Shown here piece after piece: positions 6,740 to 47,308 of a DNA stretch of 64,000 nt; within the stretch, counting starts at the first letter, position 1; every line of letters starts with the position of its first letter. The translations under genes and the position numbers were made by a program. The stretch spans positions 66,177 through 130,176 of the forward strand of contig CAZFYQ010000002.1 in the NCBI GenBank assembly GCA_964523905.1, read 5' to 3'. Source of the stretch: an uncultured Gammaproteobacteria bacterium (lineage in GTDB: Bacteria > Patescibacteriota > Microgenomatia > Daviesbacterales > UBA10151). Below the pieces are notes generated by a model. That model ran no database searches. It was not told where the DNA came from and saw only the letters and a list, made by a program, of their open reading frames with translations.

Positions 6740-6805
6740 GAGGAAATTATATCCTATTCGCCACTTCGAAGCGTGGTTTGATCTCAACTGCTATAATACC
6801 CCCGT

Positions 6806-20430: not shown

Positions 20431-21153
20431 ATGACTAAATTATCAGTAGTAATACCTTCTTATAACGAATCGAAGAACTTAAAAAACGGATCTTTGGATC
20501 AGGTGAAAGATTATCTTAAACAAAGTAAATTAAGCTATGAAATAATTATAGTAGATGATGGTTCCACAGATGCCTCAGTGGATTTAATAAAAAAATACCC
20601 TTTTCGTTTAATTCAAAATTCTCATGGTGGTAAAGCCATGGCAGTAATGACCGGTATGGAAAAAGCGACTGGTGACATCGTGCTGTTTACTGACATGGAC
20701 CAAGCCACTCCAATTAATCAGCTGGATAAATTCCTACCCAAATTTGAGGAGGGTTTTGATATTGTGATTGGTTCCCGAAGTGGCAGAAAAGGCGCCCCTT
20801 TTATCCGTAAATTATCGGCTTGGGGATTTTCAGTTTTAAGACGACTTATTTTAGGACTGCCTTTTTCCGATACTCAATGTGGTTTCAAAGCTTTCGACCA
20901 AAAAGCTATTAAAAAAATTATTCCTAGAATCAAAGGGGAGTGGGGAGTACTTCATTCTAAAACAGGAGCAGTAAATGCTGGTTTTGATGTAGAACTTTTA
21001 TACCTAGCCAAAAAATATGGCTTTAAAATTGCCGAAGTCCCCGTAGAATGGAACTATGTTGACACCGAGCGCGTCCAAGTAGTCAAAGATGCCGCGGCCG
21101 CCATCTATGACATGTTCCGCATTAGAATTAATGATCTTAAAGGAAAATACTAG
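20431..21153 (+). CDS. GT2 polyprenyl-phosphate sugar synthase (Dpm1/GtrB-like).
   Basis: It reads VVIPSYNESKNL...IIIVDDGSTDAS...FTDMDQAT and is 240 aa. Confidence 0.7.
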   Translation: MTKLSVVIPSYNESKNLKNGSLDQVKDYLKQSKLSYEIIIVDDGSTDASVDLIKKYPFRLIQNSHGGKAMAVMTGMEKATGDIVLFTDMDQATPINQLDKFLPKFEEGFDIVIGSRSGRKGAPFIRKLSAWGFSVLRRLILGLPFSDTQCGFKAFDQKAIKKIIPRIKGEWGVLHSKTGAVNAGFDVELLYLAKKYGFKIAEVPVEWNYVDTERVQVVKDAAAAIYDMFRIRINDLKGKY

Positions 21154-24346: not shown

Positions 24347-26051
24347 AAGATTTTTTAATTAAACACAAAGAGTTTTTACTGGGACTACTTTTGACTTTAA
24401 GTTTACTGTGGCCGCTGATGGCCGGCCCTTATTTTACCCATCATGACGATGTGCAAGTGATTAGGTTGTATGAGATGGATAAGTGTTTTAAGGATCATCA
24501 AATCCCTTGTCGTTGGGTGCCGGATTTGGGAGGACTGTATGGCTATCCGATTTTTAATTATTACGCACCAATGCCTATTATTTTGGAGAGTTAATTTATT
24601 TTCTAACTCATAGCTTGCTTGTTTCTGCCAAGGTGATGTTTGGGGTAAGTTTCATAGGTGCATATGTATTTATGTATCTTTTAGCTAGAAAATTCTGGGG
24701 TAATTTAGGAGGCGTCCTATCAGCCATTTTTTATAGTTTTGCGCCGTATCATAGTGTGGATTTTTATGTCAGAGGTGCAATGGGGGAAATGTGGGCCCTA
24801 ATGTTTTTTCCAGCCATTTTTTGGGCTTTAGCCCGGATGGAGGAAAATCCCAGTTTAGTTAATTTGGTACTTTTGGCACTAATGCAAGGACTGTTAATTG
24901 TTTCGCACAATTTATCAGCGATGCTGTTTTTACCAATTTGTTTGGTGTGGATGGTATTTTTGTATTTTAGAAACAAAAAGAAAAAATTTATTTGGTTTTC
25001 TTTTTTAGGATTTGTCCTGGGAATTTTACTTTCTTCTTTTTATCTTTTCCCAATGCTTTTTGAAAAACAATTAGTGCATGTTGATACCACCACCATTGGT
25101 TATTTCCACTATACCGAACATTTCAAGGGCTTAAAAAAATTATTCATTGAACGCACTTGGGGTTGGGGATCATCGGTTCGAGAAGTGCCGGGTGGAGAAA
25201 AAGACGGATTATCTTTCCAAATCGGCTGGGTGCATTTAGCAGCCTGGGCTTTGGCGCTTTTAACGGCTTTTTTATTATGGAAGAAGCAAAAATGGTTTAG
25301 TATCCTAATTATCTTAAGTACAGTAGCCACTTTATTTTCTGTATTTATGATACATCCTCGTTCGGAATTTATCTGGCGAGCAATTGATCCTTTAAAATAT
25401 ATCCAATTTCCCTGGAGATTTTTGATGCTAATTATATTTTTTATCTGTTTTACTTCCGGAAGTTTTATATTAACCAATCTTAAATTTAAAAAAATAATTT
25501 GGTGGGGGCTGATTATTTTAGTGGTCATACTTAACTTTTCTTATTTTGTTCCGGAAAAAATCATTCAAACAACTGACGCTATGCGGCTATCAGATGGTGA
25601 TTTTACCAACCAAATTAACCGTTCTATTTTTGATTATTTACCAATTTATGCTAAGGCTCCTCCAGGGGCACTGGCTGATAAAAGATATGAACTGCTAACC
25701 GGTGACTCAACAGTATTTAATTTTTATGAGGGTACCAACTGGATTAGTTTTGATACTTACACCCAAACACATACTATTATTCGTTTGTCACAGTATTATT
25801 TCCCGGACTGGAAGATTTTTGTTGACGGAAAAGAAACCATGATTGATTACCAAAATAACCCGCTTGGTTTAATGACGATTATTTTAGGCGAAGGAAATCA
25901 CCAGGTCAGAGCCAGGTTATATGATACGCCGGTCCGGTCAATTTCCAATTGGCTATCAGTTGCCACCATGTTAGCGCTTTTGACAATCTATATTATTAGT
26001 TTTAAAAAAGTCCGCAAATGGATTGCTTATTACCGGAAGGGGATTAATTAA
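24343..26051 (+). pseudogene. Frameshifted paralog of 22709..24346, split into an 83-aa N-terminal piece and a 478-aa piece.
   Basis: Frame 1 reads ...FNYYAPMPIILES* with the stop at 24592..24594. Frame 3 continues from about 24576 as YYFGELIYFLTHSLLVSAKVMFGVSF. The two pieces align collinearly to the upstream paralog across the break. Confidence 0.55.
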
Positions 26052-27480
26052 AGTGGGGGATGGTGTTAAAAAAAAGATTGCTAAGGGGTTTTTAAGTTTA
26101 ACTTTTCGAAAAGCAATTTTACTGGCCATTAATTATTTAACCATTAATATTGTGCTGGCGCGGATTTTGCCGGTTTCCACAATTGGGGTATTTAATATTG
26201 CCTCCTCAATTTTAGCTTTTTTTGCATTTTTTTCTGATATTGGTTTGGCCGCCTCTTTAATCCAAAAAAAAGAAATATCTCTGGAAGATATTAAAACCAC
26301 CTTTACTATCCAGACTATCTTAGCTTTTTCAATCAGCATTATTGTGTTTTTAGCTGCTCCTTATTTTGCTAATTTATATAATCTGGATTTTCAAGGCATG
26401 TGGTTAGTTCGCACTTTAGCCCTAAGTTTTTTCCTAGTTTCTTTAAAAGTAGTGCCCTCGGTTTTGCTGGAGCGGGACTTAAGATTTCAGCCACTGGTAG
26501 CAATTGAAGTAGCAGAAACAATTGTTTTTAATTTGATTTTAACTTTTCTGGTTTTCTCGGGTTTATCAGTTTCTTCTTTTAGTTATGCCACTGCTGCCAG
26601 AAGTATCATTGGAGTGATCTTAATCTATTCCTGGGCACCGTGGAAAGTTTCTTTAGGAGTTTCCAGACAATCAATCAGAGCTTTGCTTAGTTTTGGTTTG
26701 CCGTTTCAGCTAAATTCTTTACTGGCTTTACTAAAAGATCGCTTAGTTCCTCTGGTGATTGCCCGGATGGTTGGTAGTGTGGGAGTAGGACTAATTACCT
26801 GGTCTCAAAGTTTGGCTTTCCTACCTTTAGAGGTGATGAATATTATGACTCGGGTGACTTTTCCGGCTTTTTCCCGCTTGGCTGATAACAAAGAGCACTT
26901 AAGGGAGACTTTAGAAGATTCCTTGTTTGCAACCGGTGTGGTTTTATATCCAATGTTATTTGGATTAAATGCGGTCACTCATAGTTTAATAACGCATGTA
27001 GTATCCAGTAAGTGGCAGCTTGCAGAACCCTTAGTCCACTTGTTTTCAATCGGTGCTTTTTTTGCCACCTTATCCTCTCCTTTTACCAATTTTTTAAACG
27101 CCATTGGCAAGGTCAAAACTACTTTAAAATTAATGGTGATGTGGACGGTTTTAGAATGGTTACTGACTCCGGTATTAACTGTCTACTACGGTTTTTTAGG
27201 TGCCGGAATGGCCTCGGCTTTAATTTCTGTGACCTCAATTATTCCTTTGTTAATTATTAAGAAAATGATGAAAATTGATGTGTTAAAAAATATTTGGCAG
27301 CCGATTTTTGCCTCAGTGGTAATGGGGTTACTGGTTTATATCTTAAGTCCAATGGTAGTTTATAATTTTTTAAGTTTACTTATTCTGGTAGTTATTAGTG
27401 GGCTTTTTTATGTTGGTTTAATGTTACTTTTGGCTAAAAATAGAATGGTGAAATATTATCAAAGTTTTAAACATGGTTAA
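26023..27480 (+). CDS. Wzx-like oligosaccharide flippase / polysaccharide biosynthesis protein (MOP superfamily).
   Basis: It has about 12-14 TM helices and the N-terminal motif KGFLSLTFRKAILLAINYL. The start is uncertain. An in-frame GTG at 26053 lies just after the upstream stop. Confidence 0.55.
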   Translation: MLITGRGLIKVGDGVKKKIAKGFLSLTFRKAILLAINYLTINIVLARILPVSTIGVFNIASSILAFFAFFSDIGLAASLIQKKEISLEDIKTTFTIQTILAFSISIIVFLAAPYFANLYNLDFQGMWLVRTLALSFFLVSLKVVPSVLLERDLRFQPLVAIEVAETIVFNLILTFLVFSGLSVSSFSYATAARSIIGVILIYSWAPWKVSLGVSRQSIRALLSFGLPFQLNSLLALLKDRLVPLVIARMVGSVGVGLITWSQSLAFLPLEVMNIMTRVTFPAFSRLADNKEHLRETLEDSLFATGVVLYPMLFGLNAVTHSLITHVVSSKWQLAEPLVHLFSIGAFFATLSSPFTNFLNAIGKVKTTLKLMVMWTVLEWLLTPVLTVYYGFLGAGMASALISVTSIIPLLIIKKMMKIDVLKNIWQPIFASVVMGLLVYILSPMVVYNFLSLLILVVISGLFYVGLMLLLAKNRMVKYYQSFKHG

Positions 27481-30400
27481 ACTAATTGCTTTAATACTGA
27501 CAATATTTGCTTTTACAACTCCGGTTTTTGCCTCGGGAAATAATTTTGTTAATGTGGTAAATCCGGTAAGAGGTGGAGATTTTTGGTCAATTACCAATCA
27601 GCAGCCGGAAACTGTGGTGGAAGGACAAATTCAAATTTTAAATAAGCTGAATTTACCAGCTACCTGGCTGCTTCGCTTCGACGCCTTAGAAAATCAAAAG
27701 ATTATCACTGATTTAAATAGTCCCATTGATCAAAAAGGTCTATTTTTAGAAGTTACTCCTACTTGGGCCAAGGAGGCAGGAGTAACTTATCAAACAGGAC
27801 CTAGTTGGCATGATGCTGGCAGCGCTTTATTAACCGGCTACAGTCCTAGTGACAGAATAAAGCTAATTGATAGCGCTTTTAATAAATTCAAACAGACTGT
27901 TGGGTTTTATCCAAAAGCAGTTGGTGCTTGGTGGATAGATGCCTATTCCCTGGACTACATGCAAAAAAAATATGGTATTACCTCAAGTATGATAGTTTCC
28001 GATCAGTATAGTACGGATAATTACCAGATCTGGGGCCAGTATTTTTCTACTCCTTACTACCCGGCATTGAAAAACGCTTTGCACCCGGCACAGACCGTGG
28101 ATAATAAAATCCCAGTGGTGATGTTACAGTGGGCGCCTCGTGATCCGGTTAATTCATATGGTAATGGGGTATTTGAAAGTACATTTAGTGTTCAACCAAA
28201 TGATTATATTGATTATCATAAACTAGATGCTAAATATTTCACCAATTTACTAGATTTATATCAAAGCCAAAAGTTTAATAAATTTTCTGAAGTGGTAGTA
28301 GGTTTAGAAAATACTTATCAGTGGAGCAATTATTCTGCGGAATACCAAAACCAAATGCAGGTTTTAGCAAACCAAAGAAATAGTGGGAAAATTTCTTTAA
28401 TAACTATGGATGGGTTTGCTTCCTTTTATAAACAAGCTTTTCCGGATTTATCCCCTACTCAAATAATTGTTGGAAGTGATCCTCTAGGCACTGATAAAAA
28501 AGTAGTCTGGTATATGAATCCCTATTACCGGGCTGGGTGGTTTTACAATAATGAAGGTGCTTTATTTAGGGATATCCGTCAGTATGTTGATGGACAAGAG
28601 GAGCTTTGTTTTAGTACCAGATGCTCGACTGTTAATTTTGCTACCTCTGCCACCAGGGTGTTGGATGAAGTTAGTTTTGGCCAAAAATTATTGCTGGACT
28701 CGGGGAAAATTTCCAATTTTGATGTCACTCAAAATGCAGATAAATTTGTTTTAACATATCAGAACGAAGCCGGTAAACAAAGAGAGGTGGGTTTTCTGCC
28801 CCGGGATATTGAAATTGACGGCAAGGTTAGTTCAATTGATACCACTATTTTAAATGCCACCAAAAATAGTACGAGTAAGTCACCTACGGTTAACCAGACT
28901 ATTAGCGGTCCGTTTATTTTTTCTGTTTCATCAACCATTTTAGAATCCTTAAAGTTTCTACTATTTATAACTTTTGGCATGGTGATTCCGGGAATAGTAT
29001 TTACTAGACTGGCAATTAACCAAAAGTTGGGTTCATTAAACAGATTATTTTTATCAGCTGTTAGCGGTTTGGTGGTTTTTACTTTAATCTTTTATCTTTT
29101 GGCAGAATTTAAATTAACTGTTTTAATTTATGTTTATCTGATTTTGTCATTACTAATCTTTTTGTGGTTTTATGTTAAGGATACTTTAAGTATGGCCTTA
29201 CCAAAAATTAAAAGTATCTATGACTTAGGACTTGTGATCATAGTTACTTTGGGAACTATTTTTCAAGTCCTGCCTACTTTTCAAAGCGGTTTACGGTTTG
29301 GATATGGCATGGGACTGTGGGGACCTAATACCCATGATGGAATGTGGCATCTGGCGTTGATTAATCAGTTATTAAAACAAGTGCCACCGCAAAACCCGAT
29401 TTTTGCCAGAACTATCTTAAAAAATTATCACTATCTATATGATTTATTAGTTGCTGCTACTGTTTCCATATCTAAAGTTCCTGCCACTGATTTAGTATTT
29501 AGATTTTATCCAATCTTATTCTCACTACTTTTGGGAATTGGCAGTTATTATTTAATATCCCGATTATTTAATCAAAAATCTCTGATAAAAATTAAATTAA
29601 TTTCCTTATTTAGTTTGTATTTTATTTACTTTGCCGGATCATTTGGTTGGATTGTGGAATATATTCATCAAAAACATTGGGGAGGGGAGTCGGCTTTTTG
29701 GGCTAACCAATCAATCTCTTTTAATCTTAATCCACCGTTTGCCATCTCTTTGGTAATTATGATTGCGCTATTACAGTTGTTGCCATATTTATCTACTAAA
29801 AACCGAGGGCTCATTATTTTACTATCAATAATTTCCGGAGCTTTAATTTCTTTTAAAGCTTATGCTGGTATTTTAGTATTATCAACACTTCTAACAGTAG
29901 CCATACTAAAACGATCCATGTCCCATTTGTCAGTTTTTGTGCTTAGTTTTTTATTATCAGCATTACTATTTTTATCCAATTTTTCTGTTGGTCAAAGTCT
30001 AATTATGGTTTCACCATTTTGGTTTGTAAATTCAATGATTGATGCACCGGATCGGGTTGGTTGGTATAGGCTTTCTTTAACACGGAATGTGGGACTGGCT
30101 ACTGGTAATTGGTTTAAGTTTATTGGCGCGGAAATTATTAGTCTAGTAATTTTTATTGCGGGGAATTTGGGTACTAGGGTATTTGCGTTAATTAGTTTGA
30201 TTAAATTAAAAGCTATTTGGAAAAATAATCACTATCTATTTTTGCTAATCTTAGGACTCTTTTCATTACTAATTCCGATTATTTTTATTCAGGCAGGAAA
30301 CCCTTGGAATACTATCCAATTTATCTATTACTTTTTATATTTAGCTGCCTTAATAAACGGTGTAGTCATGGTTAAAATGCTAACAAAGTTTAACAAGGTA

Positions 30401-30895
30401 GTAGGTTTTTTACTGTGTTTCGTAATTTTAACCTTAACACCAATTAATGCTTGGACTACTGCTAAGGGTTACCTAAACGAGCAACCTCATGCTTATATCA
30501 GTAATGATGAGTTAAGTGCTTTACAATTTCTTAAGGATCAGCCGGATGGAGTGGTACTGACCTATCCTTATGATAGTAATCTAAAAGGCGGTATTGCCCA
30601 GCCCTGGCCACTGGTTGCCTATGACAGCACGGCTTATGTAGCAGCTTTTAGTAATAAACCAAGTTTTCTGGAAGATGAAGCCCAAAACCAGATTTTATTA
30701 ACTAATAATCAAAAGAGATTAATTGCATCAAAAGATTTTTTTACCCAGCCAAATCCTGATTTAAATTTTCTAAGGAAAAATCAGATTAAATACATTTATC
30801 TTCCCAAAATATATAATGTAAGGGTTGATCAAAGTCAGGGTAGCATTAAAACTTTGCTGGAAAATAGCCAGGTAGTTATTTATGAAATCAATTAG
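27473..30895 (+). CDS. Very large protein (family B). It has a signal peptide, an extracytoplasmic domain of about 480 aa and a polytopic domain of about 650 aa.
   Basis: It is 1140 aa. The membrane domain block HDGMWHLALINQLLKQVPPQNPIFA is shared with 34397..36376 (HDGLWHISLMQEYQKGYPLQNPVFA). Confidence 0.5.
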   Translation: MVKLIALILTIFAFTTPVFASGNNFVNVVNPVRGGDFWSITNQQPETVVEGQIQILNKLNLPATWLLRFDALENQKIITDLNSPIDQKGLFLEVTPTWAKEAGVTYQTGPSWHDAGSALLTGYSPSDRIKLIDSAFNKFKQTVGFYPKAVGAWWIDAYSLDYMQKKYGITSSMIVSDQYSTDNYQIWGQYFSTPYYPALKNALHPAQTVDNKIPVVMLQWAPRDPVNSYGNGVFESTFSVQPNDYIDYHKLDAKYFTNLLDLYQSQKFNKFSEVVVGLENTYQWSNYSAEYQNQMQVLANQRNSGKISLITMDGFASFYKQAFPDLSPTQIIVGSDPLGTDKKVVWYMNPYYRAGWFYNNEGALFRDIRQYVDGQEELCFSTRCSTVNFATSATRVLDEVSFGQKLLLDSGKISNFDVTQNADKFVLTYQNEAGKQREVGFLPRDIEIDGKVSSIDTTILNATKNSTSKSPTVNQTISGPFIFSVSSTILESLKFLLFITFGMVIPGIVFTRLAINQKLGSLNRLFLSAVSGLVVFTLIFYLLAEFKLTVLIYVYLILSLLIFLWFYVKDTLSMALPKIKSIYDLGLVIIVTLGTIFQVLPTFQSGLRFGYGMGLWGPNTHDGMWHLALINQLLKQVPPQNPIFARTILKNYHYLYDLLVAATVSISKVPATDLVFRFYPILFSLLLGIGSYYLISRLFNQKSLIKIKLISLFSLYFIYFAGSFGWIVEYIHQKHWGGESAFWANQSISFNLNPPFAISLVIMIALLQLLPYLSTKNRGLIILLSIISGALISFKAYAGILVLSTLLTVAILKRSMSHLSVFVLSFLLSALLFLSNFSVGQSLIMVSPFWFVNSMIDAPDRVGWYRLSLTRNVGLATGNWFKFIGAEIISLVIFIAGNLGTRVFALISLIKLKAIWKNNHYLFLLILGLFSLLIPIIFIQAGNPWNTIQFIYYFLYLAALINGVVMVKMLTKFNKVVGFLLCFVILTLTPINAWTTAKGYLNEQPHAYISNDELSALQFLKDQPDGVVLTYPYDSNLKGGIAQPWPLVAYDSTAYVAAFSNKPSFLEDEAQNQILLTNNQKRLIASKDFFTQPNPDLNFLRKNQIKYIYLPKIYNVRVDQSQGSIKTLLENSQVVIYEIN

Positions 30896-32504
30896 TAAAT
30901 CAATTCAAATACTACTGCTCATACTGTTTGTGGCATTAATTTTGCGAGTGGTTTTTATTAACTCCAGCCCGCTTTCTTTATACGGCGATGAATTGACGAT
31001 TACCTTAGACGCTAATTCTTTAATTCGTACCGGTTACGATCAGTTGGGTAATATTTTACCTTTAACTTTTCCAATGGGAGCAGGTAGACCAGGAGGATAT
31101 GTTTATTTTTCAATGCCGTTTATGCTGCTTTTTGGCCCAACTGCCTTAGGAGTTAGAGCACTGTCTATCTTATCAGGTCTGGGAATTATTACGCTTTTAT
31201 ATTTTATCTGTAGAAAATTATTTTCTGAGAAAGCCGCAGTAATGGTGGCAATTATGGCAGCAATTGATCCTTGGGAAATCTCTTTAAGCAGGGGAGGGTT
31301 TGAGGCTCATTTTGCTCTGTTTTTGCTACTTTTGGGACTTTATTTTCTGTTAAAAGCTAAGGAAAAGCCTATTTTTTATTTATGGTCAGCTATTAGTTTG
31401 GGTCTGACAGTGCACACCTATCCTACATATAAAGTGACCTTGCCCTTGTTTTTACTGCTGGCTGTTTGGTTTATTGGATTTAAACAAATGATTGGTGAAT
31501 CGAGAAAATATTTTATCAGTGGCCTGGTGATTTTATGTTTAATTGGACTAGTGGCTTTTAGCCAAACTTTTATTGGTGGATCGGAAGTGAGATTTTTTAG
31601 TATCAATGTTTTTTCACAAACAGATATTAAAGCAATGATTGAACAAAAACTTAATCTGGAAAGAAGTATCACAGTTTTGCCAGAATCTTTGGCGAAATTT
31701 TTTCATAATAAACCAGTTGAGTATTTCAAAATTTTATCTGAAAATTATTTACATAATTTTTCCTTTGATTTTTTGTTTATTCATGGTGACCGTAACCCCC
31801 GACATAATATGACCACCATGGGCGAATTTTACGCAGCAGAAATGGTTCTGATATTAATTGGACTGTTGTCTTTGGCGGGAAACAAAAAAACTTTGTTTTT
31901 TTTGATAAGCTGGATTTTAATTGGTCCTTTGGCTAGTGCGGTGATCGGAGACCCACATGCTTTAAGAAGTGCTTTGGAATTTGCTCCATTAACTATTTTA
32001 TCTGGCCTTGGGCTGCTTGCGTTATATAACCAAAAAAGTAAATTGCCATTAATGCTGGTCAGTTTTGCTTTAATTATACAAATGATTTTCTTTTTGCAAA
32101 AATTATATTTTCTGGCACCTAGGGAATATGCCAATTTCTGGGCCTATTCGGCAAAATTGGCAACCAATATTGTGTTAGAAAATAGATCTCAATATGATTA
32201 TATTTTTGTATCCGATCAAATTGACAGCGTAGAATTTGGTTATCCGGTTTATGCCAAGGTGAACCCGGCTGATGTGATTGATCGTAATAAAAATAAATAT
32301 CAGCTAAATGGCTTAAGTTTTAAAAAGTTTGATAATGTTTACGTAGGTTTTATTCCCAAAACTGACACTGAAAAATTTCTAAACACTATTAAAGGAAAAG
32401 TGTTATTTATTGGGGATGCGGAAATGAGTAAGTATTTAAAGGATTATCAAATTATCAAAGGAGAGGATAAATTTACCACCTTGATTGTAAGTAAACATCT
32501 GTAA
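30882..32504 (+). CDS. PMT/ArnT-like GT-C glycosyltransferase.
   Basis: The loop motif is LYGDELTITLDANSLIRTGYDQLGNILPLTF. It is 540 aa. Confidence 0.55.
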   Translation: MKSISKSIQILLLILFVALILRVVFINSSPLSLYGDELTITLDANSLIRTGYDQLGNILPLTFPMGAGRPGGYVYFSMPFMLLFGPTALGVRALSILSGLGIITLLYFICRKLFSEKAAVMVAIMAAIDPWEISLSRGGFEAHFALFLLLLGLYFLLKAKEKPIFYLWSAISLGLTVHTYPTYKVTLPLFLLLAVWFIGFKQMIGESRKYFISGLVILCLIGLVAFSQTFIGGSEVRFFSINVFSQTDIKAMIEQKLNLERSITVLPESLAKFFHNKPVEYFKILSENYLHNFSFDFLFIHGDRNPRHNMTTMGEFYAAEMVLILIGLLSLAGNKKTLFFLISWILIGPLASAVIGDPHALRSALEFAPLTILSGLGLLALYNQKSKLPLMLVSFALIIQMIFFLQKLYFLAPREYANFWAYSAKLATNIVLENRSQYDYIFVSDQIDSVEFGYPVYAKVNPADVIDRNKNKYQLNGLSFKKFDNVYVGFIPKTDTEKFLNTIKGKVLFIGDAEMSKYLKDYQIIKGEDKFTTLIVSKHL

Positions 32505-33766
32505 TGTTTCACGCTTTAGATAATATCAGTTTAAAAAAATTATTTATTCTGGCAATCCTTCTAAGACTTTTGGTGATGCCGTTTTATTTTCATCCGGATA
32601 TTAAAACAACTTATTTTCAAACTTCATTTTTAAGTAAAGGGGTAGTTAATATTTATACATATATCAGTAACAATAAAACTAGCTTGCCTGTTAGAGATGA
32701 TTTTACATATTTTCCCTTAACCTATTTTTTGCTGGGTGGTTATGAAATTTTAGTATCACCAATATTAGGAATTGATTTTCAAAAATGGTTATTTGATGCC
32801 TCAACTTACGCCCCAACCGCCGCTCATATTTTTAAATATCTATTTGTTTTAAAGCTGCCATATCTAGTTTTAGATATCTTAACCGGCTTTTTATTAATGC
32901 AATTTTTTGTAAATAGGCAGGATCAAAAAAAGGCTGCTGTTTTTTGGTTATTTAATCCAATTTGGCTAATTCTAATTCACATATATAGTAACTTTGATAT
33001 TATTCCGGTTTTCATTACCACAGCCGCATTACTGCTATTTATCAAAGGCAAGAATTTTCTGTCAGCTGTTTTAATTGGGGTCGCTGCTGGTTTTAAAGCC
33101 TATCCGCTACTTTTTTTACCATTTATGATGCTTTATACAAAAAATCTTAAGCAGTCGCTGGTCACTTTATTATCAGGCCTGATAACATTTATATTAATTG
33201 TCTTACCTTTTTGGTCAGAAAGTTTTAAAAATCAGGCTTTAGTGTCAGGACTAACCTCGCGAATCTTTTTATCTAGTATTAGTATCGGATTTGGTGAAGC
33301 CTTGCCGGTTTCAATTATTTTATTTTCTCTACTGTTTTTCTATTGTTTAAATAAAAAAGATAAAAAAAGAGAGGATGTGCTACCGGTTTTACTGGCAGAG
33401 CTATTAATTTTATTTTCCTTTATACATTTCCATATTGCCTGGCTGCTTTGGCTGGCGCCGCTTTTTACCATTATTTTAATCATGAAAACTGCTTTGCAAA
33501 AGATTTTATATCTTAATTTAATAATTGCTTTTTTAATCCCTCTGTTATATCAAGATCAGTCAATGACTTTTGGGCTGCTTAGGGCCATTAGTCCAATTTA
33601 TAATCAACTACCAATGCCTTTTGTAATATTGCAGCACTTTTATGATCCTTATCTGGTACAGAGTGCCCTGCAAAGTGCACTAGCAGGAGGAAGCTTAATA
33701 TTGATTTGGAATTTGTTCCAGGCAAACCCTGAAAGAACAAGTTCTTTAAGAGAAGAAAAAATATGA
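32504..33766 (+). CDS. DUF2029/GT87-like polytopic membrane protein (putative GT-C).
   Basis: WLFNPIWLILIHIYSNFDIIPVFITTAALLLFIKGKNF...GFKAYPLLFLPF is paralogous to 39232..40371. Confidence 0.4.
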   Translation: MFHALDNISLKKLFILAILLRLLVMPFYFHPDIKTTYFQTSFLSKGVVNIYTYISNNKTSLPVRDDFTYFPLTYFLLGGYEILVSPILGIDFQKWLFDASTYAPTAAHIFKYLFVLKLPYLVLDILTGFLLMQFFVNRQDQKKAAVFWLFNPIWLILIHIYSNFDIIPVFITTAALLLFIKGKNFLSAVLIGVAAGFKAYPLLFLPFMMLYTKNLKQSLVTLLSGLITFILIVLPFWSESFKNQALVSGLTSRIFLSSISIGFGEALPVSIILFSLLFFYCLNKKDKKREDVLPVLLAELLILFSFIHFHIAWLLWLAPLFTIILIMKTALQKILYLNLIIAFLIPLLYQDQSMTFGLLRAISPIYNQLPMPFVILQHFYDPYLVQSALQSALAGGSLILIWNLFQANPERTSSLREEKI

Positions 33767-34440
33767 AAAGTATAATAACCACTGTTTCCATAATTTTGCT
33801 GCTTATTGTATTGCCTGCTCTGCTTACTTTGGGAGTTAGATACTTACCTGATAGATATCAACCATCCTTAGATAAAGTATTTGATCTTTATGGACCGACT
33901 TCCTTATCTCAGAGTTTTATAGCAACAGATGATAACCTTGCCATAATTGGTCTAAGTATTAAAAATCCTAATCTACAAAACAAAAAAGATCTAACCCTAA
34001 CAGTTGTTGATAGCGGTAACAATATTTTGAGCACATCTACACTAAATGGAGCTTCGATTCCGGATGGTGATTTTGTGAAATTTAAATTCTCACCGATTAT
34101 CAGTAGCAAAAGTAAGCATTTAACATTTGTCTTGTCATCGCCATCTTCCAATAGAAATGACGCTTTGGAAATATTTTTGACAAAACAAAAACTGACCGGG
34201 GTAGATGACTTAAAGAAATTACCTCTTAGTGTTGACGCATCTGATGTGGCTTCCACCAGTGCCTCATTTGTGCCTTTTTATAAGGTAAACTCGCCGCTTT
34301 CTTTAATTAAAAATACGGTTTCAGATTTTTCCAGTCGCTTTTTTGCAGATCGAATTTTTGCAGTTTGCTATATTCTGCTAGTAGCTCTACTTTTAATTAC
34401 TTTACTTGCCAAATTTCCACTAAATCGTTTGAGAAAATAG
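33763..34440 (+). CDS. Hypothetical bitopic protein with N- and C-terminal TM helices and an extracytoplasmic Ser/Asn-rich middle region.
   Basis: It is 225 aa. Its 3' end overlaps the convergent gene by 44 nt. Confidence 0.35.
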   Translation: MKSIITTVSIILLLIVLPALLTLGVRYLPDRYQPSLDKVFDLYGPTSLSQSFIATDDNLAIIGLSIKNPNLQNKKDLTLTVVDSGNNILSTSTLNGASIPDGDFVKFKFSPIISSKSKHLTFVLSSPSSNRNDALEIFLTKQKLTGVDDLKKLPLSVDASDVASTSASFVPFYKVNSPLSLIKNTVSDFSSRFFADRIFAVCYILLVALLLITLLAKFPLNRLRK

Positions 34441-36376
34441 GTTTTAAGTCGGTTTTGGTTAGATCTACTAGGGGTTTTTGGGCTTTGGGAAAATATAGAT
34501 AACTGACATTTAGGGCTTTGATTCTAGATTCAAAAGTTTTCGGCTCAGTCTCTAAAAACAATTCTTGTTGGGTGTTTAGTCTTGGTTTTAAGTCGTATCC
34601 CATGATATCAACTTGTTCTGTATCTGCCAGATAAGTTCTTCTATTAGATAGGGCTGTCACATAGCCCGTGTCAGACCAATCCCATATTTGCGGGACAATG
34701 GATGGTAAGTTTAAGTATTGGTTGTATGGCGGCGTTAAAACTACACTGTTATCGTCTGAATTCTGTTTCAAAAAATTAAGAGCTACGAGTTCCTTTTGAT
34801 CGACTTTGGCAAAAGGAGGCCGGCTATAAAAGCTATTAATTAATGAAATCTGTGTAGGAACTGCTAACAAGATAATTAAAAAACCGAGCAGGAAATTTAT
34901 GAAGCGGTACTTAATTTTTTTAGATATTTCACTGACAAAAACCGCAGAGATTATTCCCATTAGCAGTAAATAGTATTGCAAAAACTGAATTGAATTTGAG
35001 GCCACCCCTTTTTGCAAAAAAAGCATCGGTAAAATAAATGAGATCAAAATGATCAGAATTATTATCAAATTTAAATGATTACTAAAAGATTTTTTAATAA
35101 GTCTTGGTAGGGAAAATAGAGCTAAAAATCTCATGCCAAGATTTCCAAAAAAGAAAATTAAAAAAGCCTCAGTTTCTAGCTGGATCACTCTTTTCCAGTT
35201 ATGGTCGGCAATATAGGTTTGTCTCCGGAGCTCCATATCCAGTTGGTTTAATCTGTCTGGAGTCACAACCATGGTTCTGACATACCACCATGGCTGAAAT
35301 ATTAAAAAAGCGCCTGAGTCTTGAGAGTTTGGTAAATAAAGTATTGCAGAAAGTATGCTGCTGCTAAAAAACAAAGATAGGATATTAAACTTTCTTTCTC
35401 TGATTAATTGCCAAAGGCCTACTAAGCCTAAGCTGGCTAAGATGACCACCGCTCCATAAACTTTAAATACTGCCAGGGTTCCTGCCAAAATTGTGCACAC
35501 AAAAAATAAATATTTGGTCTGTTTTTCGATAAAAAAACTAAATAAATACAAAAAAGCTAAAACAATAATAAAAGCCGCGGCTTGAGGGGGATTACCAATT
35601 GAGCTTTGGACTTGTGAGGCCCAGAAGATACTTTCTCCGCCAATAGAACGGTCTTTTAAGTAAGTGAGAATATAACCAAAGCTACCGGCAAAATAAGTAA
35701 AAACTGTCGCCCAAAGACCGGTTTGAAAATTACCACCCAGCTTTTTTCCTAACAGATATGCTAGTCCGCCTAAGAGTATTGAGAAAAGCAAAGGAAAAAA
35801 TCTAAAATAAAGATCAAACAAGGAAAATTTAAAAAACAAATTAAAATCAGATGGGGCAATATCAGAAAAAAAATGATAATTTACTAGTCTGGTACCGGCA
35901 AAGACCGGGTTTTGCAGAGGATAACCTTTTTGATATTCCTGCATTAAACTAATGTGCCACAGCCCATCATGGCCATGAGAACTCCAAAACACTAAATCTC
36001 CATTTAAATTAATTCCGCTAGGTGCAATTATGAGCAATTGTCCGGTGATGCCAATGATAAAGACTAGTAAAATTAAACTAAGTCTTTTTCCAGAAGGTCG
36101 GGTGTATTTTTTAAACAGGTTAGGTAGTTTTTTAATCTCCAGAAAAGAAAATATCAAAATTAGCGGTAACAATAGAAAATGTAACTTTATAACACTAAAC
36201 AAATAAGAAACTAAAGAAAAAAATACCAGTCCTACCACAGACCCCAGGATAATTTTTTCCCAGAAATTTAATTTATCTGTAGACTTTTCTAAAAAATAAA
36301 TGCCTGGTAGAGTAAAAAAAGCTGTTGCAAGGCCAATAAAAGCCACTAACTGAACTATCAGTAAAACGAAATACAT
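34397..36376 (-). CDS. Family B polytopic membrane protein. It is a paralog of the membrane domain of 27473..30895.
   Basis: It is about 659 aa. It shares the HDGLWH block and a C-terminal pattern with the 1140-aa protein. The first ATG is at 36376, and there is a GTG at 36382. Confidence 0.5.
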   Translation of the reverse strand: MYFVLLIVQLVAFIGLATAFFTLPGIYFLEKSTDKLNFWEKIILGSVVGLVFFSLVSYLFSVIKLHFLLLPLILIFSFLEIKKLPNLFKKYTRPSGKRLSLILLVFIIGITGQLLIIAPSGINLNGDLVFWSSHGHDGLWHISLMQEYQKGYPLQNPVFAGTRLVNYHFFSDIAPSDFNLFFKFSLFDLYFRFFPLLFSILLGGLAYLLGKKLGGNFQTGLWATVFTYFAGSFGYILTYLKDRSIGGESIFWASQVQSSIGNPPQAAAFIIVLAFLYLFSFFIEKQTKYLFFVCTILAGTLAVFKVYGAVVILASLGLVGLWQLIRERKFNILSLFFSSSILSAILYLPNSQDSGAFLIFQPWWYVRTMVVTPDRLNQLDMELRRQTYIADHNWKRVIQLETEAFLIFFFGNLGMRFLALFSLPRLIKKSFSNHLNLIIILIILISFILPMLFLQKGVASNSIQFLQYYLLLMGIISAVFVSEISKKIKYRFINFLLGFLIILLAVPTQISLINSFYSRPPFAKVDQKELVALNFLKQNSDDNSVVLTPPYNQYLNLPSIVPQIWDWSDTGYVTALSNRRTYLADTEQVDIMGYDLKPRLNTQQELFLETEPKTFESRIKALNVSYLYFPKAQKPLVDLTKTDLKPIFSNDLVEIWQVK

Positions 36377-36464
36377 ATTCACATTATGCCAGAAAGGATC
36401 GTTAGAAACTAGCTGAAGGTGGATTTGATTTTACATACACCCCCTAAATTAGTAAGATAAGACT

Positions 36465-38161: not shown

Positions 38162-39235
38162 TTGAAGGTAGCCATTTATTCTCCATATTTAGATACTTTG
38201 GGTGGGGGAGAGCGCTATATGATGAGTATTGCTGAGGTGCTTTCTAAGCCGGATATCAGAGTGGATGTTTTACTTGACGGCCATTTGTTTAAAATTGGTG
38301 CCGATTATTTAAAAAAGCAGTTAACGAAGCGCTTTGGGCTTAATTTATCAAGGGTTAATTTTCTTGCTGCCCCCATTGGAGGGGGCAGCAATTTTGTTTC
38401 GCGACATTTTTTTTTAAAAACTTATGACGTTTGTTTTTACCTAACTGATGGCAGTATTTTTTATCCTTCCAGCAAGAAGAACTTCTTGCATATTCAGTCT
38501 CCTCTGGTGGGACAACCAGCTAAAAGTACCTGGGGTAAGAAAAAATTGGCCGGATGGGATTTAATTATTTATAACTCCACTTTTACCAAACAAGCTGCAC
38601 AAAATTATTGGCCGATTAAATCAGAAGTAATCTATCCTCCGGTAGATACAGATGTTTTTAAACCATTAAAAAAAGAAAAAATTATTCTTAGTGTTGGCAG
38701 ATTTTTTGGTTTTCTAAAAGATAAAAAGCAGGAAATTTTAATTGATACCTTTATTAAAATACAAAAGCAACATAAGCTAACTGGTTGGAGCTTAGCTTTA
38801 GCCGGTTCTGCTAAAGAAGGAGACCTGGATTATTTAGATAATTTAAAGAAACAGGCCGGAAAATTCGAAGTAAAGTTTTTCCCTAATTTGGAGTATGATG
38901 AATTAATCAATCTCTACGGTAGATCAAGTATTTATTGGCACGGGGCGGGATACCAAGAAACTGATCCAACTAAAATGGAACATTTTGGGATTTCTACAGT
39001 GGAGGCCATGGCAGCTGGAGCTGTACCAGTAGTGATTGGTCTAGGTGGACAAGTAGAAATTGTTGAAAATGGTAAATCAGGACTACTGTGGAATAGTTTG
39101 GATCAGTTAGAGGAGGAGACCTTAAGAGTAGTTGAGGATGAAAAACTTTTTGCTAAATTGTCAAAGGCAGCCATTGAAAGAGCCAAGAATTTTAGTAAGG
39201 AAAAATTTAGAGAGAAAATTCTAAATCTTATATGA
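38162..39235 (+). CDS. GT4 family glycosyltransferase with a TTG start.
   Basis: It has the EX7E region FGISTVEAMAAGAVPVV. AAGGAA lies 10 nt upstream of the TTG. Confidence 0.6.
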   Translation: MKVAIYSPYLDTLGGGERYMMSIAEVLSKPDIRVDVLLDGHLFKIGADYLKKQLTKRFGLNLSRVNFLAAPIGGGSNFVSRHFFLKTYDVCFYLTDGSIFYPSSKKNFLHIQSPLVGQPAKSTWGKKKLAGWDLIIYNSTFTKQAAQNYWPIKSEVIYPPVDTDVFKPLKKEKIILSVGRFFGFLKDKKQEILIDTFIKIQKQHKLTGWSLALAGSAKEGDLDYLDNLKKQAGKFEVKFFPNLEYDELINLYGRSSIYWHGAGYQETDPTKMEHFGISTVEAMAAGAVPVVIGLGGQVEIVENGKSGLLWNSLDQLEEETLRVVEDEKLFAKLSKAAIERAKNFSKEKFREKILNLI

Positions 39236-46654: not shown

Positions 46655-46655
46655 G

Positions 46656-47282: not shown

Positions 47283-47308
47283 CCAGATCTTCATGCTATG
47301 ATTATGTT

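What the first reader, a model, noticed from the sequence alone, without database searches (positions are those of the whole stretch)
27473..36382. A second family of giant polytopic proteins (HDG[ML]WH block), one carrying a 480-aa extracytoplasmic domain
The 1140-aa protein at 27473 and the 659-aa protein at 34397 (minus strand) share a membrane domain with the conserved block HDG[ML]WH[IL][AS]L[IM].....P.QNP[IV]FA, plus a similar C-terminal tail. Only the first has an additional N-terminal extracytoplasmic domain of about 480 aa after a signal peptide (NPVRGGDFWSI...). I cannot place this family in a named GT-C or polymerase family from the sequence alone. Its position in the island and its size suggest a polymerase- or transferase-type enzyme acting on lipid-linked substrates.
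Basis: seen in the sequence. Interest (0 to 1): 0.6.

Follow-up and report, generated by a model that had tools for sequence, protein, structure and literature searches.

The report
Unclassified GT-C glycosyltransferase pair, Microgenomates
The two large membrane proteins are paralogous members of an unnamed family of GT-C-fold, lipid-donor-dependent glycosyltransferases found mainly in Microgenomates (CPR bacteria), and one of them carries an extra external sugar-enzyme-like domain; this is an uncharacterised branch of a well-known enzyme class, not a new kind of system.

Summary
Protein A (27473-30895, +, 1140 aa) and protein B (34397-36382, -, 659 aa from the ATG) align over about 650 residues (32% identity, E 2e-75). 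Both carry the HDG[ML]WH block, and only A has a signal peptide plus a ~465-aa extra domain.

Neither protein matches Pfam, NCBIfam or any PDB sequence. An AF2 model of B (pLDDT 90.7) matches only GT-C glycosyltransferases: STT3, AglB and PglB (E 1e-10 to 1e-7), DPY19, AftA (best TM-score, 0.53), AftD, ArnT and PMT. Profile-profile comparison links the family to the PMT_2 and PTPS_related paralogs in the window (Prob ~95%). It places the family-invariant Asp (B D137, A D622) on their EL1 Asp. B reads as three accessory TMs, an 11-TM GT-C core and an alpha/beta C-terminal domain.

A's N-domain is a distant DUF3863-like (beta/alpha)7 barrel (3lm3, E 1e-14) without the CE4 metal triad.

The family has about 2,000 clusters at 50% identity. 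It sits in a conserved glycan locus, and a member lies directly downstream of a Wzx flippase in 31 of 31 loci.

Most likely these are glycosyltransferases that use polyprenyl-phosphate-linked donors to build a cell-envelope glycan. Donor and acceptor are unknown. I rate it a new variant of a known kind, of moderate interest.

The parts
27473..30895 (+). Gene A: 1140-aa fusion protein made of a signal peptide, a DUF3863-like domain, 3 accessory TMs, a GT-C core and a C-terminal domain
   Evidence: ORF and translation. More than 120 full-length ortholog clusters at 54-66% identity.
27473..27535 (+). A residues 1-21: Sec-type signal peptide (MVK, hydrophobic core, VFA|SG)
   Evidence: Read from the sequence. 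Helix 2-13 followed by low pLDDT at 15-20 in the model. The cleavage site is inferred.
27536..28447 (+). A residues ~22-325: seven-stranded (beta/alpha) barrel, DUF3863-like, of the glycoside hydrolase/deacetylase superfamily
   Evidence: AF2 pLDDT 87.5. Foldseek hit to 3lm3 at E 1e-14, then CE4 deacetylases and the GH38 N-domain. The domain profile hits 3lm3 by sequence at E 9e-6. Invariant N30, E93, D156, D177, Q178, D224 and E279 lie at strand ends.
28448..28870 (+). A residues ~326-466: beta-sandwich subdomain of the N-terminal module
   Evidence: DSSP strands 330-454 in the model. The second colinear HMM stretch to 3lm3 falls here.
28937..29203 (+). A residues ~489-577: three accessory TM helices and a Lys/Arg-rich cytoplasmic loop that precede the GT-C core
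   Evidence: Aligned to B residues 9-95. Absent from the ~560-aa family members. Lies outside the region aligned to PMT_2.
29204..30475 (+). A residues ~578-1001: 11-TM GT-C core
   Evidence: Aligned to B residues 96-518. Fold and profile evidence come from B.
29333..29407 (+). A residues 621-645: HDGMWH...PPQNPIFA block in the first long external loop. D622 (29336-29338) is the predicted catalytic base and H626 its i+4 partner.
   Evidence: Regex match. The Asp is invariant in 133 of 133 family members. It aligns to the EL1 Asp of PMT_2.
30476..30892 (+). A residues ~1002-1140: extracytoplasmic alpha/beta C-terminal domain (the 'tail')
   Evidence: Aligned to the B tail. Weak fold match to the AglB C-terminal globular domain 3vu0. 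Homologous to the tail of the 675-aa family.
34397..36382 (-). Gene B: 659-aa paralog (ATG at 36376) without the N-terminal domain
   Evidence: 599 homologs found at E <= 1e-3, none named.
36092..36376 (-). B residues 1-95: three accessory TMs and the cytoplasmic loop KKLPNLFKKYTRPS
   Evidence: AF2 helices 2-32, 38-62 and 66-81. Positive-inside count.
34823..36091 (-). B residues 96-518: 11-TM GT-C core. It has a two-helix first external loop (134-150 and 170-182) and a long loop at 351-393.
   Evidence: AF2 pLDDT 90.7, pTM 0.92. Foldseek hits to GT-C structures. hhalign to PMT_2 and PTPS_related at Prob ~95%.
35897..35971 (-). B residues 136-160: HDGLWH...PLQNPVFA block. D137 (35966-35968) is the predicted catalytic base.
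34400..34822 (-). B residues 519-659: extracytoplasmic alpha/beta C-terminal domain
26023..27480 (+). Wzx/MOP flippase gene whose end overlaps the start of A by 8 nt; a conserved partner of the A type
   Evidence: Polysacc_synt_3 at E 6e-51. MOP flippase family. A family member lies immediately downstream on the same strand in 31 of 31 loci. One fused ORF, P0385.
20431..21153 (+). Small GT2 in the same + strand gene run; candidate polyprenyl-phosphate-sugar synthase that could supply the donor
   Evidence: Glycos_transf_2. Best NCBIfam resemblances are PgfS, ArnC, dolichyl-phosphate hexose transferase and PpgS, all below cut-off.
33763..34440 (+). 225-aa bitopic protein of unknown function, convergent with B and overlapping its 3' end by 44 nt; a conserved neighbour of B
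   Evidence: Present next to B in 43 of 65 loci.

Best explanation
A and B are paralogous GT-C-fold integral-membrane glycosyltransferases from an unnamed family. Each has three accessory N-terminal TM helices, an 11-TM GT-C core and an extracytoplasmic alpha/beta C-terminal domain. The active site faces outward. The invariant Asp (B D137, A D622) sits at the start of the first helix of the first long external loop and is proposed to act as general base. H141, Y167, H168, K305, N262, Q455 and Q464 would then hold the phosphate or sugar of a polyprenyl-phosphate-linked donor. The donors would be made on the cytoplasmic face by the ArnC/DPM1-like GT2 enzymes of the island and flipped by the Wzx (or GtrA) proteins. 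[quoted passage not shown] The enzymes would add sugars to a cell-envelope glycan that the 15 or so other GT-C, GT2 and GT4 enzymes of the conserved locus assemble. A's extra DUF3863-like barrel, also outside the cell, most likely binds or processes that same glycan by hydrolysis, transglycosylation or trimming. It is not a CE4-type deacetylase. What is shown: paralogy, fold, topology logic, conserved residues and synteny. What is inferred: catalytic role of the Asp, donor class, acceptor and N-domain activity.
For: Paralogy is E 2e-75. The AF2 model of B has pLDDT 90.7 and pTM 0.92. Foldseek against PDB gives 23 GT-C chains at probability 1.00: STT3 at 1e-10, AglB, DPY19 at 6e-9, PglB at 3e-8, AftA with TM-score 0.53/0.58, AftD, ArnT and PMT. 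Nothing else is credible. hhalign of the 97-sequence family profile against the window's PMT_2 gene at 44999 gives Prob 95.8% and E 7e-9 over 388 columns. PTPS_related gives 95.3% and two further PMT_2 paralogs give 94.2% and 90.8%. The Wzx control gives 0.5%. In that alignment D137 falls on the Asp of the PMT_2 'TGKDEWG' motif, and B's TM4 corresponds to PMT_2's TM1. D137, Y167, H168, K305, G411 and Q464 are invariant across 133 and 97 diverse members. All of them map to external loops in a 14-TM N-out/C-out topology, which is supported by a K+R count of 31 inside against 12 outside. Short family members start exactly at the core, with one TM before the loop. The model shows the GT-C hallmarks listed for AftA in PMC10265970: an 11-TM core plus extra N-terminal TMs, an Asp on a two-helix first long loop with an i+4 basic partner, a long ECL5 and an alpha/beta C-terminal domain. 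On context, a Wzx ortholog is directly followed by a family member in 31 of 31 loci, the locus is syntenic across 65 genomes, and the island encodes ArnC/PgfS/Dol-P-hexose-transferase-like GT2s and a GT2-GtrA fusion. Wzx-type flippases are known to serve GT-C systems that use C55-P-sugars (PMC8035078). For the N-domain: 3lm3 at E 1e-14, a profile hit to 3lm3 at E 9e-6, and invariant carboxylates at the C-terminal ends of the barrel strands.
Against: There is no biochemical evidence. The family fails every curated sequence model and every PDB sequence search. The equivalence of D137 with the catalytic Asp rests on a profile alignment of low per-residue confidence and on a predicted model; no structural superposition was possible. 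The best Foldseek E-values go to oligosaccharyltransferases rather than to monosaccharide transferases, and Wzx flippases more often carry PP-linked oligosaccharides. Both points favour the en-bloc rival. The acceptor is entirely unknown. No initiating phosphoglycosyltransferase or LCP ligase was seen in the window. The N-domain's closest relative, DUF3863/BDI_3119, has no known function, so 'glycan processing' rests on fold and conservation pattern only.
Confidence: 0.6

Rival explanations
1. En-bloc transferase, ligase or polymerase. In this reading the family, at least the A type, takes the Wzx-flipped polyprenyl-PP-linked oligosaccharide and transfers it whole to a protein or wall acceptor, or polymerises it. 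It would work like STT3/PglB/AglB, as the last step of an ALG-like pathway: cytoplasmic GT4/GT2 enzymes, then a MOP flippase, then external GT-C extensions, then en-bloc transfer.
For: The best Foldseek E-values go to STT3, AglB and PglB (1e-10 to 1e-7), and the tail resembles the AglB C-terminal globular domain 3vu0. The Wzx gene is always directly upstream (31 of 31 loci), and one database ORF fuses Wzx, the N-domain and the GT-C. The locus also has cytoplasmic GT2 and GT4 genes and many external GT-Cs.
Against: No WWDYG or DK/MI-type motif is conserved in the tail; only structural Leu and Tyr residues are. Only one acidic residue is invariant, whereas OSTs use an acidic metal-binding triad. 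There is no Pfam STT3 hit. The highest TM-score goes to AftA, a monosaccharide transferase. Sequence-profile affinity is to PMT_2 and PTPS_related. Loci carry two or three paralogs, which suits stepwise enzymes better than a terminal ligase. The tail domain also occurs without any GT-C core. Wzx-type flippases also serve C55-P-monosaccharide systems.
Confidence: 0.22
2. Protein glycosyltransferase. The chemistry and lipid-P-sugar donor are as in the best explanation, but the acceptor is a secreted or surface protein such as an S-layer protein or pilin, as for PMT, DPY19 or TMTC, rather than a glycan.
For: The fold matches PMT and DPY19 and there is profile homology to PMT_2. Several neighbouring GT2s resemble AglJ and PgfS, which are enzymes of protein glycosylation.
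Against: The fused N-domain belongs to a carbohydrate-active superfamily. The locus is rich in sugar-nucleotide and polysaccharide-type genes: Wzx, GT4, GT87 and PIG-V-like. No candidate target protein is encoded nearby. None of this is decisive.
Confidence: 0.12
3. A's N-terminal domain is an active CE4/NodB-type metal-dependent de-N-acetylase that deacetylates the product. A would then be a bifunctional glycosyltransferase-deacetylase in the manner of PgaB or PelA.
For: After 3lm3, the next fold matches are CE4 enzymes: HP0310, PdaC, PgdA and BC1960, at E 3e-7 to 1e-3.
Against: The family has no conserved His pair and no Asp-Asp at the end of strand 1, where 'NPVR' replaces 'TFDD'. The only nearly invariant His is H113. 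There is no Polysacc_deac_1 hit at E <= 1. TM-scores to CE4 enzymes are low relative to the query (0.27-0.40).
Confidence: 0.06
4. The proteins are not enzymes but polytopic transporters or scaffolds, and the conserved block is structural.
For: There is no curated family hit. One nearest database name for a homolog is only 'hypothetical'.
Against: Transporter folds score probability below 0.3 and TM-score below 0.15, against 1.00 and about 0.46-0.53 for GT-Cs. The invariant polar residues cluster on external loops at positions that are catalytic in GT-Cs.
Confidence: 0.03

Closest known systems
AftA (GT85) and the mycobacterial arabinosyltransferases AftD and EmbA/B/C
   Same: AftA gives the highest TM-score (0.53/0.58). 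The architecture is the same: extra N-terminal TMs outside an 11-TM GT-C core, a catalytic Asp with an i+4 basic partner on a two-helix first long loop, a long ECL5 and an alpha/beta periplasmic C-terminal domain. Both belong to loci in which many GT-Cs build a wall glycan from polyprenyl-P-sugars, and both can carry accessory sugar-related external domains.
   Different: There is no detectable sequence similarity. The motif differs (HDGxWH, with His rather than Arg at i+4). The accessory domain is an N-terminal DUF3863-like barrel rather than CBMs. The phylum differs and the sugar is unknown.
PMT_2 / ArnT / PMT-type GT-C enzymes (GT83, GT39) and PTPS_related (PF10131) membrane proteins
   Same: These are the only families reachable by sequence profiles (Prob 91-96%). 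The EL1 Asp aligns, they are encoded in the same locus, and they use polyprenyl-P-monosaccharide donors.
   Different: The family fails the Pfam gathering thresholds outright, with no hit at E <= 1. It has three extra N-terminal TMs and a different C-terminal domain. The DE motif is replaced by HDGxWH.
Oligosaccharyltransferases STT3, AglB and PglB (GT66)
   Same: They give the best Foldseek E-values, and a globular C-terminal domain follows the last TM. A flippase is upstream.
   Different: There is no WWDYG or DK/MI motif, no conserved acidic triad and no Pfam STT3 match. The core has 11 TMs plus 3 accessory TMs, not the 13-TM arrangement.
Multi-component transmembrane glycosylation systems (GacI/J/K/L; CsbB/GtcA/YfhO; GtrA/B/V)
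   Same: The logic is the same: a GT2 C55-P-sugar synthase, a GtrA- or Wzx-type flippase and a GT-C transferase acting outside the membrane. The gene pair Wzx followed by a GT-C is conserved.
   Different: The GT-C is from a different family. The locus contains more than ten GT-Cs rather than one, and the fused hydrolase/deacetylase-like domain is not a feature of those systems.
DUF3863 (PF12979; BDI_3119, PDB 3lm3), in the glycoside hydrolase/deacetylase (beta/alpha)7 superfamily with CE4, GH38-N and GH57
   Same: It is the best fold match for A's N-domain (E 1e-14, TM-score 0.59/0.65). There is a profile-level sequence link at E 9e-6, with shared Q..DG and PFYPS..PAQ stretches.
   Different: The match is below the Pfam threshold (13-17 bits against 27). 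The family-specific WWID and LQWAxRDP motifs are not shared. The domain is membrane-tethered and fused to a GT-C. DUF3863 itself has no known function.

Membership tests
GT-C fold glycosyltransferase superfamily | Polytopic core with the conserved GT-C helix arrangement | tested here: met
   Foldseek gives probability 1.00 to 23 GT-C chains and to no other class. hhalign to PMT_2 and PTPS_related gives Prob ~95%, against 0.5% for the Wzx control.
GT-C fold glycosyltransferase superfamily | Conserved catalytic Asp/Glu on the first long extracytoplasmic loop, which is formed by two helices | tested here: met
   D137 is invariant in 133 of 133 members. It lies at the N-terminus of helix 134-150, and a second loop helix spans 170-182. 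It aligns to the PMT_2 EL1 Asp. Its catalytic role is inferred, not shown.
GT-C fold glycosyltransferase superfamily | Long external loop between two distal TMs (ECL5-like) and an external C-terminal alpha/beta domain | tested here: met
   The loop at 351-393 has helices 364-371 and 379-390 and carries the conserved P362 and W364. The C-terminal domain at 519-659 has 5 strands and about 6 helices. The feature list is from PMC10265970.
GT-C fold glycosyltransferase superfamily | Use of a polyprenyl-phosphate-linked glycosyl donor | not testable with these tools
   Only context bears on this: ArnC/PgfS-like GT2s and flippases are in the locus.
Pfam PMT_2 (PF13231) / PMT (PF02366) | Score above the gathering threshold of the family HMM | tested here: not met
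   No family at E <= 1 for A or B, nor for ortholog P0333, although UniRef names P0333 'Glycosyltransferase RgtA/B/C/D-like domain-containing protein'.
Oligosaccharyltransferase STT3/AglB/PglB (GT66) | WWDYG motif (and DK/MI motif) in the C-terminal domain | tested here: not met
   B has IWDWSDTGY and A has PWPLVAYDSTAY. Neither is conserved family-wide, and no polar residue of the tail reaches 90% conservation.
Oligosaccharyltransferase STT3/AglB/PglB (GT66) | Conserved acidic residues on EL1, EL2 and EL5 that bind the divalent cation | tested here: inconclusive
   Only D137 is invariant. D172 and E248 are conserved in the close subfamily only. D374 is conserved in 114 of 126 members. No superposition was possible.
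Oligosaccharyltransferase STT3/AglB/PglB (GT66) | Match to the Pfam STT3 model or sequence similarity to solved OSTs | tested here: not met
AftA (GT85) | Sequence similarity to AftA | tested here: not met
   There is no PDB sequence hit even with a 97-sequence profile. Only the fold is similar.
DUF3863 (PF12979) | Score above the Pfam gathering threshold (27 bits) | tested here: not met
   A gives no hit. Orthologs score 13-17 bits over profile positions ~104-210. Remote homology is supported by Foldseek at E 1e-14 and by the profile hit to 3lm3 at E 9e-6.
CE4 / NodB polysaccharide deacetylases | Asp-His-His metal triad and catalytic motifs (TFDD, H[ST]xxH, LxH) | tested here: not met
   There is no invariant His and no Asp pair at the end of strand 1 (NPVR instead) in 34 homologs. 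There is no Polysacc_deac_1 hit.
Wzy polymerase / WaaL O-antigen ligase | Wzy_C domain or a fold match to WaaL or Wzy | tested here: not met
   There is no Wzy_C hit for A or B, and no WaaL, Wzy or SEDS chain appears among the Foldseek matches listed.

The most novel reading that the evidence does not exclude
The HDGxWH proteins would be the terminal, OST- or ligase-like en-bloc transferases of a pathway conserved across Microgenomates that parallels eukaryotic and archaeal lipid-linked-oligosaccharide assembly. The steps would be cytoplasmic GT4/GT2 enzymes, a MOP flippase, a series of external GT-C extensions fed by polyprenyl-P-sugars, and then en-bloc transfer. The fused DUF3863-like barrel would trim or select the glycan or acceptor. 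This would be a new OST-like family with a built-in glycan-processing domain.
Probability: 0.1. Interest if true: 0.8.

Novelty: new variant of a known kind. Interest (0 to 1): 0.45.

Why it matters
Microgenomates and other CPR bacteria are uncultured, and their cell envelopes are chemically unknown. This family has about 2,000 clusters at 50% identity and no Pfam, NCBIfam or PDB anchor. It sits at the centre of a locus conserved across Daviesbacteria and Woesebacteria that encodes more than ten GT-C enzymes. That suggests an elaborate envelope glycan assembled outside the membrane, comparable in logic to mycobacterial arabinogalactan. Defining the family, its likely catalytic residues (D137, H141, Y167, H168, K305) and its fixed pairing with a Wzx flippase gives annotators a handle. 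It also gives experimenters specific constructs and mutants to test. The recurrent fusion of a GT-C to a DUF3863-like barrel offers the first functional context for that orphan domain.

Tried and rejected
Searches that found nothing:
- Pfam and NCBIfam scans of A and B gave nothing at E <= 1.
- PDB sequence searches with single sequences and with 37- and 97-sequence profiles gave only noise.
- hhalign of the family profile against single window GT-C sequences was not significant. It became significant only once ortholog profiles were built from the fetched loci.
- The look-up of encoding contigs had no record of B's exact sequence.
- Literature searches for DUF3863, BDI_3119, 3LM3 and GT-C in CPR or Patescibacteria found nothing on this family.
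- There are no tRNA or Rfam features in the window.

Readings considered and rejected:
- Transporter: fold probability below 0.3.
- Wzy or WaaL polymerase/ligase: no fold or domain match.
- STT3-family membership: motifs absent.
- Active CE4 deacetylase: triad absent.
- The 24615-26051 ORF as a C-terminal continuation of the PTPS_related gene: it matches the same profile region, so it is a separate paralog.
- A programmed frameshift in the release-factor gene at 5663-6787: a plain ATG start is present.

Full report
**Observation.** The ORF list shows a 1140-aa ORF at 27473-30895 (+), called A here. It also shows a 661-aa ORF at 34397-36382 (-), called B here. B is 659 aa from the ATG at 36376, and that form is the one held in public databases. 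BLASTP aligns A residues 489-1140 with B residues 9-661 at 32% identity and E 2e-75, colinear to the last residue. The spacer before P.QNP is 7 residues, not 5. Only A has the first ~488 residues, which begin with a Sec-type signal peptide. No other copy of either module is in the window.

**No named family.** hmmscan against Pfam-A and NCBIfam returns nothing at E <= 1 for either protein. phmmer and hmmsearch against all PDB chain sequences return only noise, even with profiles of 37 and 97 family members. The family itself is large. There are 599 clusters at 90% identity with E <= 1e-3 for B. More than 120 full-length ortholog clusters of A exist at 54-66% identity. An exhaustive profile search of 1.84 billion representatives finds 2,036 clusters at 50% identity with E <= 1e-3, of which 960 are below 1e-30. 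All members are labelled hypothetical, except one ortholog that UniRef names 'Glycosyltransferase RgtA/B/C/D-like domain-containing protein'. Current Pfam does not reproduce that hit.

**Fold of the membrane part.** An AF2 model of B built on 37 sequences has mean pLDDT 90.7 and pTM 0.92. Foldseek against the PDB returns GT-C glycosyltransferases only, all at probability 1.00:
- STT3 of the human and yeast OST at E 1e-10 to 5e-9
- archaeal AglB
- the C-mannosyltransferase DPY19 at 6e-9
- PglB at 3e-8 to 1e-7
- AftA, with the highest TM-score (0.53/0.58)
- AftD, ArnT and Pmt1/2

Transporters follow with probability below 0.3 and TM-score below 0.15. The C-terminal 140 residues separately resemble the C-terminal globular domain of an AglB (3vu0, TM-score to target ~0.5).

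**Sequence-level link.** Comparison against single sequences was not significant. I therefore built ortholog profiles of the window's other membrane proteins from 65 fetched loci. hhalign of the 97-sequence family profile gives:
- Prob 95.8%, E 7e-9 over 388 columns to the PMT_2 gene at 44999-46654
- 95.3% to the PTPS_related gene at 22676-24346
- 94.2% and 90.8% to two further PMT_2 paralogs
- 0.5% to the Wzx control, and 2-12% to the GT87-like protein and the uncharacterised 379-aa membrane protein at 39232-40371

The alignment starts at family position ~96 against PMT_2 position ~5. It places B D137 on the Asp of the PMT_2 EL1 motif TGKDEWG.

**Anatomy and topology.** B has 14 TM helices in the model. 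The first three (residues 2-81) lie outside the region homologous to PMT_2. They are missing from the ~560-aa family members, which begin with a single TM before the HDGxWH loop. The core is therefore 11 TMs, as described for AftA. In AftA, TM1-2 are accessory, the catalytic Asp128 sits on a two-helix first long loop and pairs with R132, a long ECL5 gates the donor site, and an alpha5beta5 C-terminal domain covers the active site (PMC10265970). B shows all of these features:
- a loop at 118-185 with helices 134-150 and 170-182
- D137 and H141 at i and i+4
- a loop at 351-393 with two short helices
- a C-terminal domain at 519-659 with five strands and about six helices

With A's N-domain outside the cell, the topology is N-out and C-out. 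The K+R count near helix ends is 31 inside against 12 outside.

Across 133 and 97 diverse members the invariant residues are D137, Y167, H168, K305, G411 and Q464. H141, W140, N262, P362, W364, N412, R416 and Q455 are conserved at 90% or more. In this topology most of these polar residues map to external loops or the outer membrane face; exceptions are N412 and R416 (within TM 394-430) and Q464. The tail has no conserved polar motif, and in particular nothing equivalent to WWDYG.

**The extra domain of A.** An AF2 model of residues 1-486 has pLDDT 87.5. It shows a seven-stranded beta/alpha barrel (~24-325) followed by a beta-sandwich (~330-454) and a disordered linker. Foldseek's best match is 3lm3 (BDI_3119, 'putative glycoside hydrolase/deacetylase', the DUF3863 structure) at E 1e-14 and TM-score 0.59/0.65. 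CE4 deacetylases and the GH38 N-domain follow. The domain-family profile also finds 3lm3 by sequence at E 9e-6. Pfam's DUF3863 model scores only 13-17 bits in some orthologs, against a threshold of 27, and nothing in A itself. Invariant residues in 34 homologs lie at the C-terminal ends of the barrel strands: N30/P31, D70 (nearly invariant), E93, W153/W154/D156, D177/Q178, Q219/W220/R223/D224 and E279. This is the pattern of an active or sugar-binding site. The CE4 Asp-His-His triad and the TFDD and HSxxH motifs are absent.

**Modularity.** 34 of the 150 best family representatives carry this N-domain, joined to the core by either four or two TMs. Both arrangements keep the loop outside the cell. 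Most stand-alone homologs of the N-domain are ~675-aa proteins made of the N-domain, two TMs and a ~130-aa tail. That tail is homologous to the C-terminal domain of A and B (hhalign Prob 97%, E 8e-11). In effect these proteins are A without the GT-C core. One representative (P0385, 1639 aa) joins a Polysacc_synt_3 flippase, the N-domain and the GT-C in one ORF. I could not tell whether this is real or a frameshift artefact.

**Context and distribution.** The window is a 35% GC glycan island. It encodes:
- dTDP-rhamnose and GDP-sugar genes
- GT2-GtrA and GT2-PMT_2 fusions and small ArnC/PgfS-like GT2s
- about ten PMT_2 paralogs
- PTPS_related, GT87-like and PIG-V-like membrane proteins
- GT4s and two MOP flippases

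A's start overlaps the stop of the Wzx gene by 8 nt, and A's stop overlaps the next PMT_2 gene. A scan of one genome per GTDB species found 65 loci. Those with informative record titles are mostly labelled Daviesbacteria, Woesebacteria or Patescibacteria; 26 of the 65 carry only a generic 'uncultured Gammaproteobacteria' title. There is also a full-length member in a 67% GC Kiritimatiellia MAG (hhalign Prob 100%). Gene order is conserved: PTPS, then the uncharacterised 478-aa ORF (24615-26051), Wzx, A, sometimes a third paralog, PMT_2, GT87 and the 225-aa protein (33763-34440). B follows on the opposite strand, and beyond it lie GT2, GT2, GT4 and the 379-aa protein (39232-40371). Wherever the Wzx ortholog is present, a family member is immediately downstream on the same strand (31 of 31 loci). 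Loci hold one to three family copies.

**Mechanism.** The evidence shows a GT-C glycosyltransferase with an outward-facing active site. By analogy with AftA, ArnT and PMT, I infer that D137 (A D622) is the general base activating the acceptor hydroxyl. K305, H168, Y167 and H141 would then hold the donor's phosphate. I favour polyprenyl-monophosphate sugar donors made by the island's GT2s and flipped by Wzx or GtrA. This matches the multi-component transmembrane glycosylation scheme, in which Wzx-type flippases such as GacK are known to serve (PMC8035078). The acceptor would be a cell-envelope glycan under assembly, and A's N-domain would bind or trim that glycan.

The main rival is en-bloc transfer of the Wzx-flipped PP-linked glycan, in the manner of an OST or ligase. 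It is favoured by the Foldseek E-value ranking and by the Wzx pairing. It is disfavoured by five points: the absence of the OST motifs and acidic triad, the profile affinity to PMT_2, the higher TM-score to AftA, the multiple paralogs per locus, and the occurrence of the tail without a GT-C core. A protein acceptor cannot be excluded.

**Comparison and novelty.** The family works like a GT-C and meets the fold-level features that define the superfamily. It fails the membership tests for PMT_2, STT3/GT66, AftA/GT85, Wzy/WaaL, DUF3863 (by the Pfam threshold) and CE4. It is best described as an unclassified GT-C family with its own EL1 signature and a recurrent fusion to a DUF3863-like barrel, that is, a new variant of a known kind. 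I found no paper describing it.

Noticed in passing
window 40340-50301: Six tandem PMT_2 (GT-C) paralogs in one + strand run, interrupted by a PF04199 'putative cyclase' gene at 46656-47282. The run is conserved in order across Woesebacteria and Daviesbacteria loci.
   Followed up: partly
window 18226-20358: A single 710-aa ORF fuses an ArnC/PgfS-like GT2 (a lipid-P-sugar synthase type) to a PMT_2 GT-C domain that also resembles Agl23. This is donor synthase and consumer in one protein.
   Followed up: no
related proteins P0155, P0199, P0239; locus L008: A widespread ~675-aa family consists of the DUF3863-like domain, two TMs and a tail homologous to the GT-C C-terminal domain (Prob 97%). In effect it is protein A with the GT-C core removed. 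In L008 it lies next to a B ortholog. It is not present in the window.
   Followed up: partly
protein P0385 (1639 aa, from the representative library): One ORF joins a Polysacc_synt_3 flippase, the N-domain and the GT-C. It is either a true Rosetta-stone fusion or a frameshift artefact of the 8-nt gene overlap seen in the window.
   Followed up: no
proteins P0121, P0123: Two A orthologs (59% identity) stop early after '...HWGGGSRLFGQTSRSHSI', where the family has HWGGES.FWA.Q. This looks like a frameshift, from either a pseudogene or an assembly error.
   Followed up: no
loci L001-L063: Many records titled 'uncultured Gammaproteobacteria bacterium' carry the low-GC, Microgenomates-type locus with the same gene order as Daviesbacteria and Woesebacteria records. 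The titles look generic or wrong.
   Followed up: no
window 33763-34440: A 225-aa protein with TM helices at both ends and a beta-rich middle. It has no Pfam hit, overlaps B's 3' end convergently by 44 nt and is conserved next to B in 43 of 65 loci.
   Followed up: partly
loci L041-L063 compared with window 30882: In many Daviesbacteria a third family paralog (~44% identical to B) lies directly downstream of A. In the window A is followed directly by the PMT_2 gene.
   Followed up: no
locus L065, 9644-11764: A full-length family member (706 aa, AHAHDAPWH motif) occurs in a 67% GC Kiritimatiellia MAG, next to two epimerase/dehydratase genes and a methyltransferase. The family is therefore not strictly confined to CPR bacteria.
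   Followed up: partly
window 1-64000: No tRNA gene and no Rfam family at gathering score in 64 kb. The left end holds FtsE/FtsX, PcsB-like and M23 peptidase genes and a release factor.
   Followed up: no
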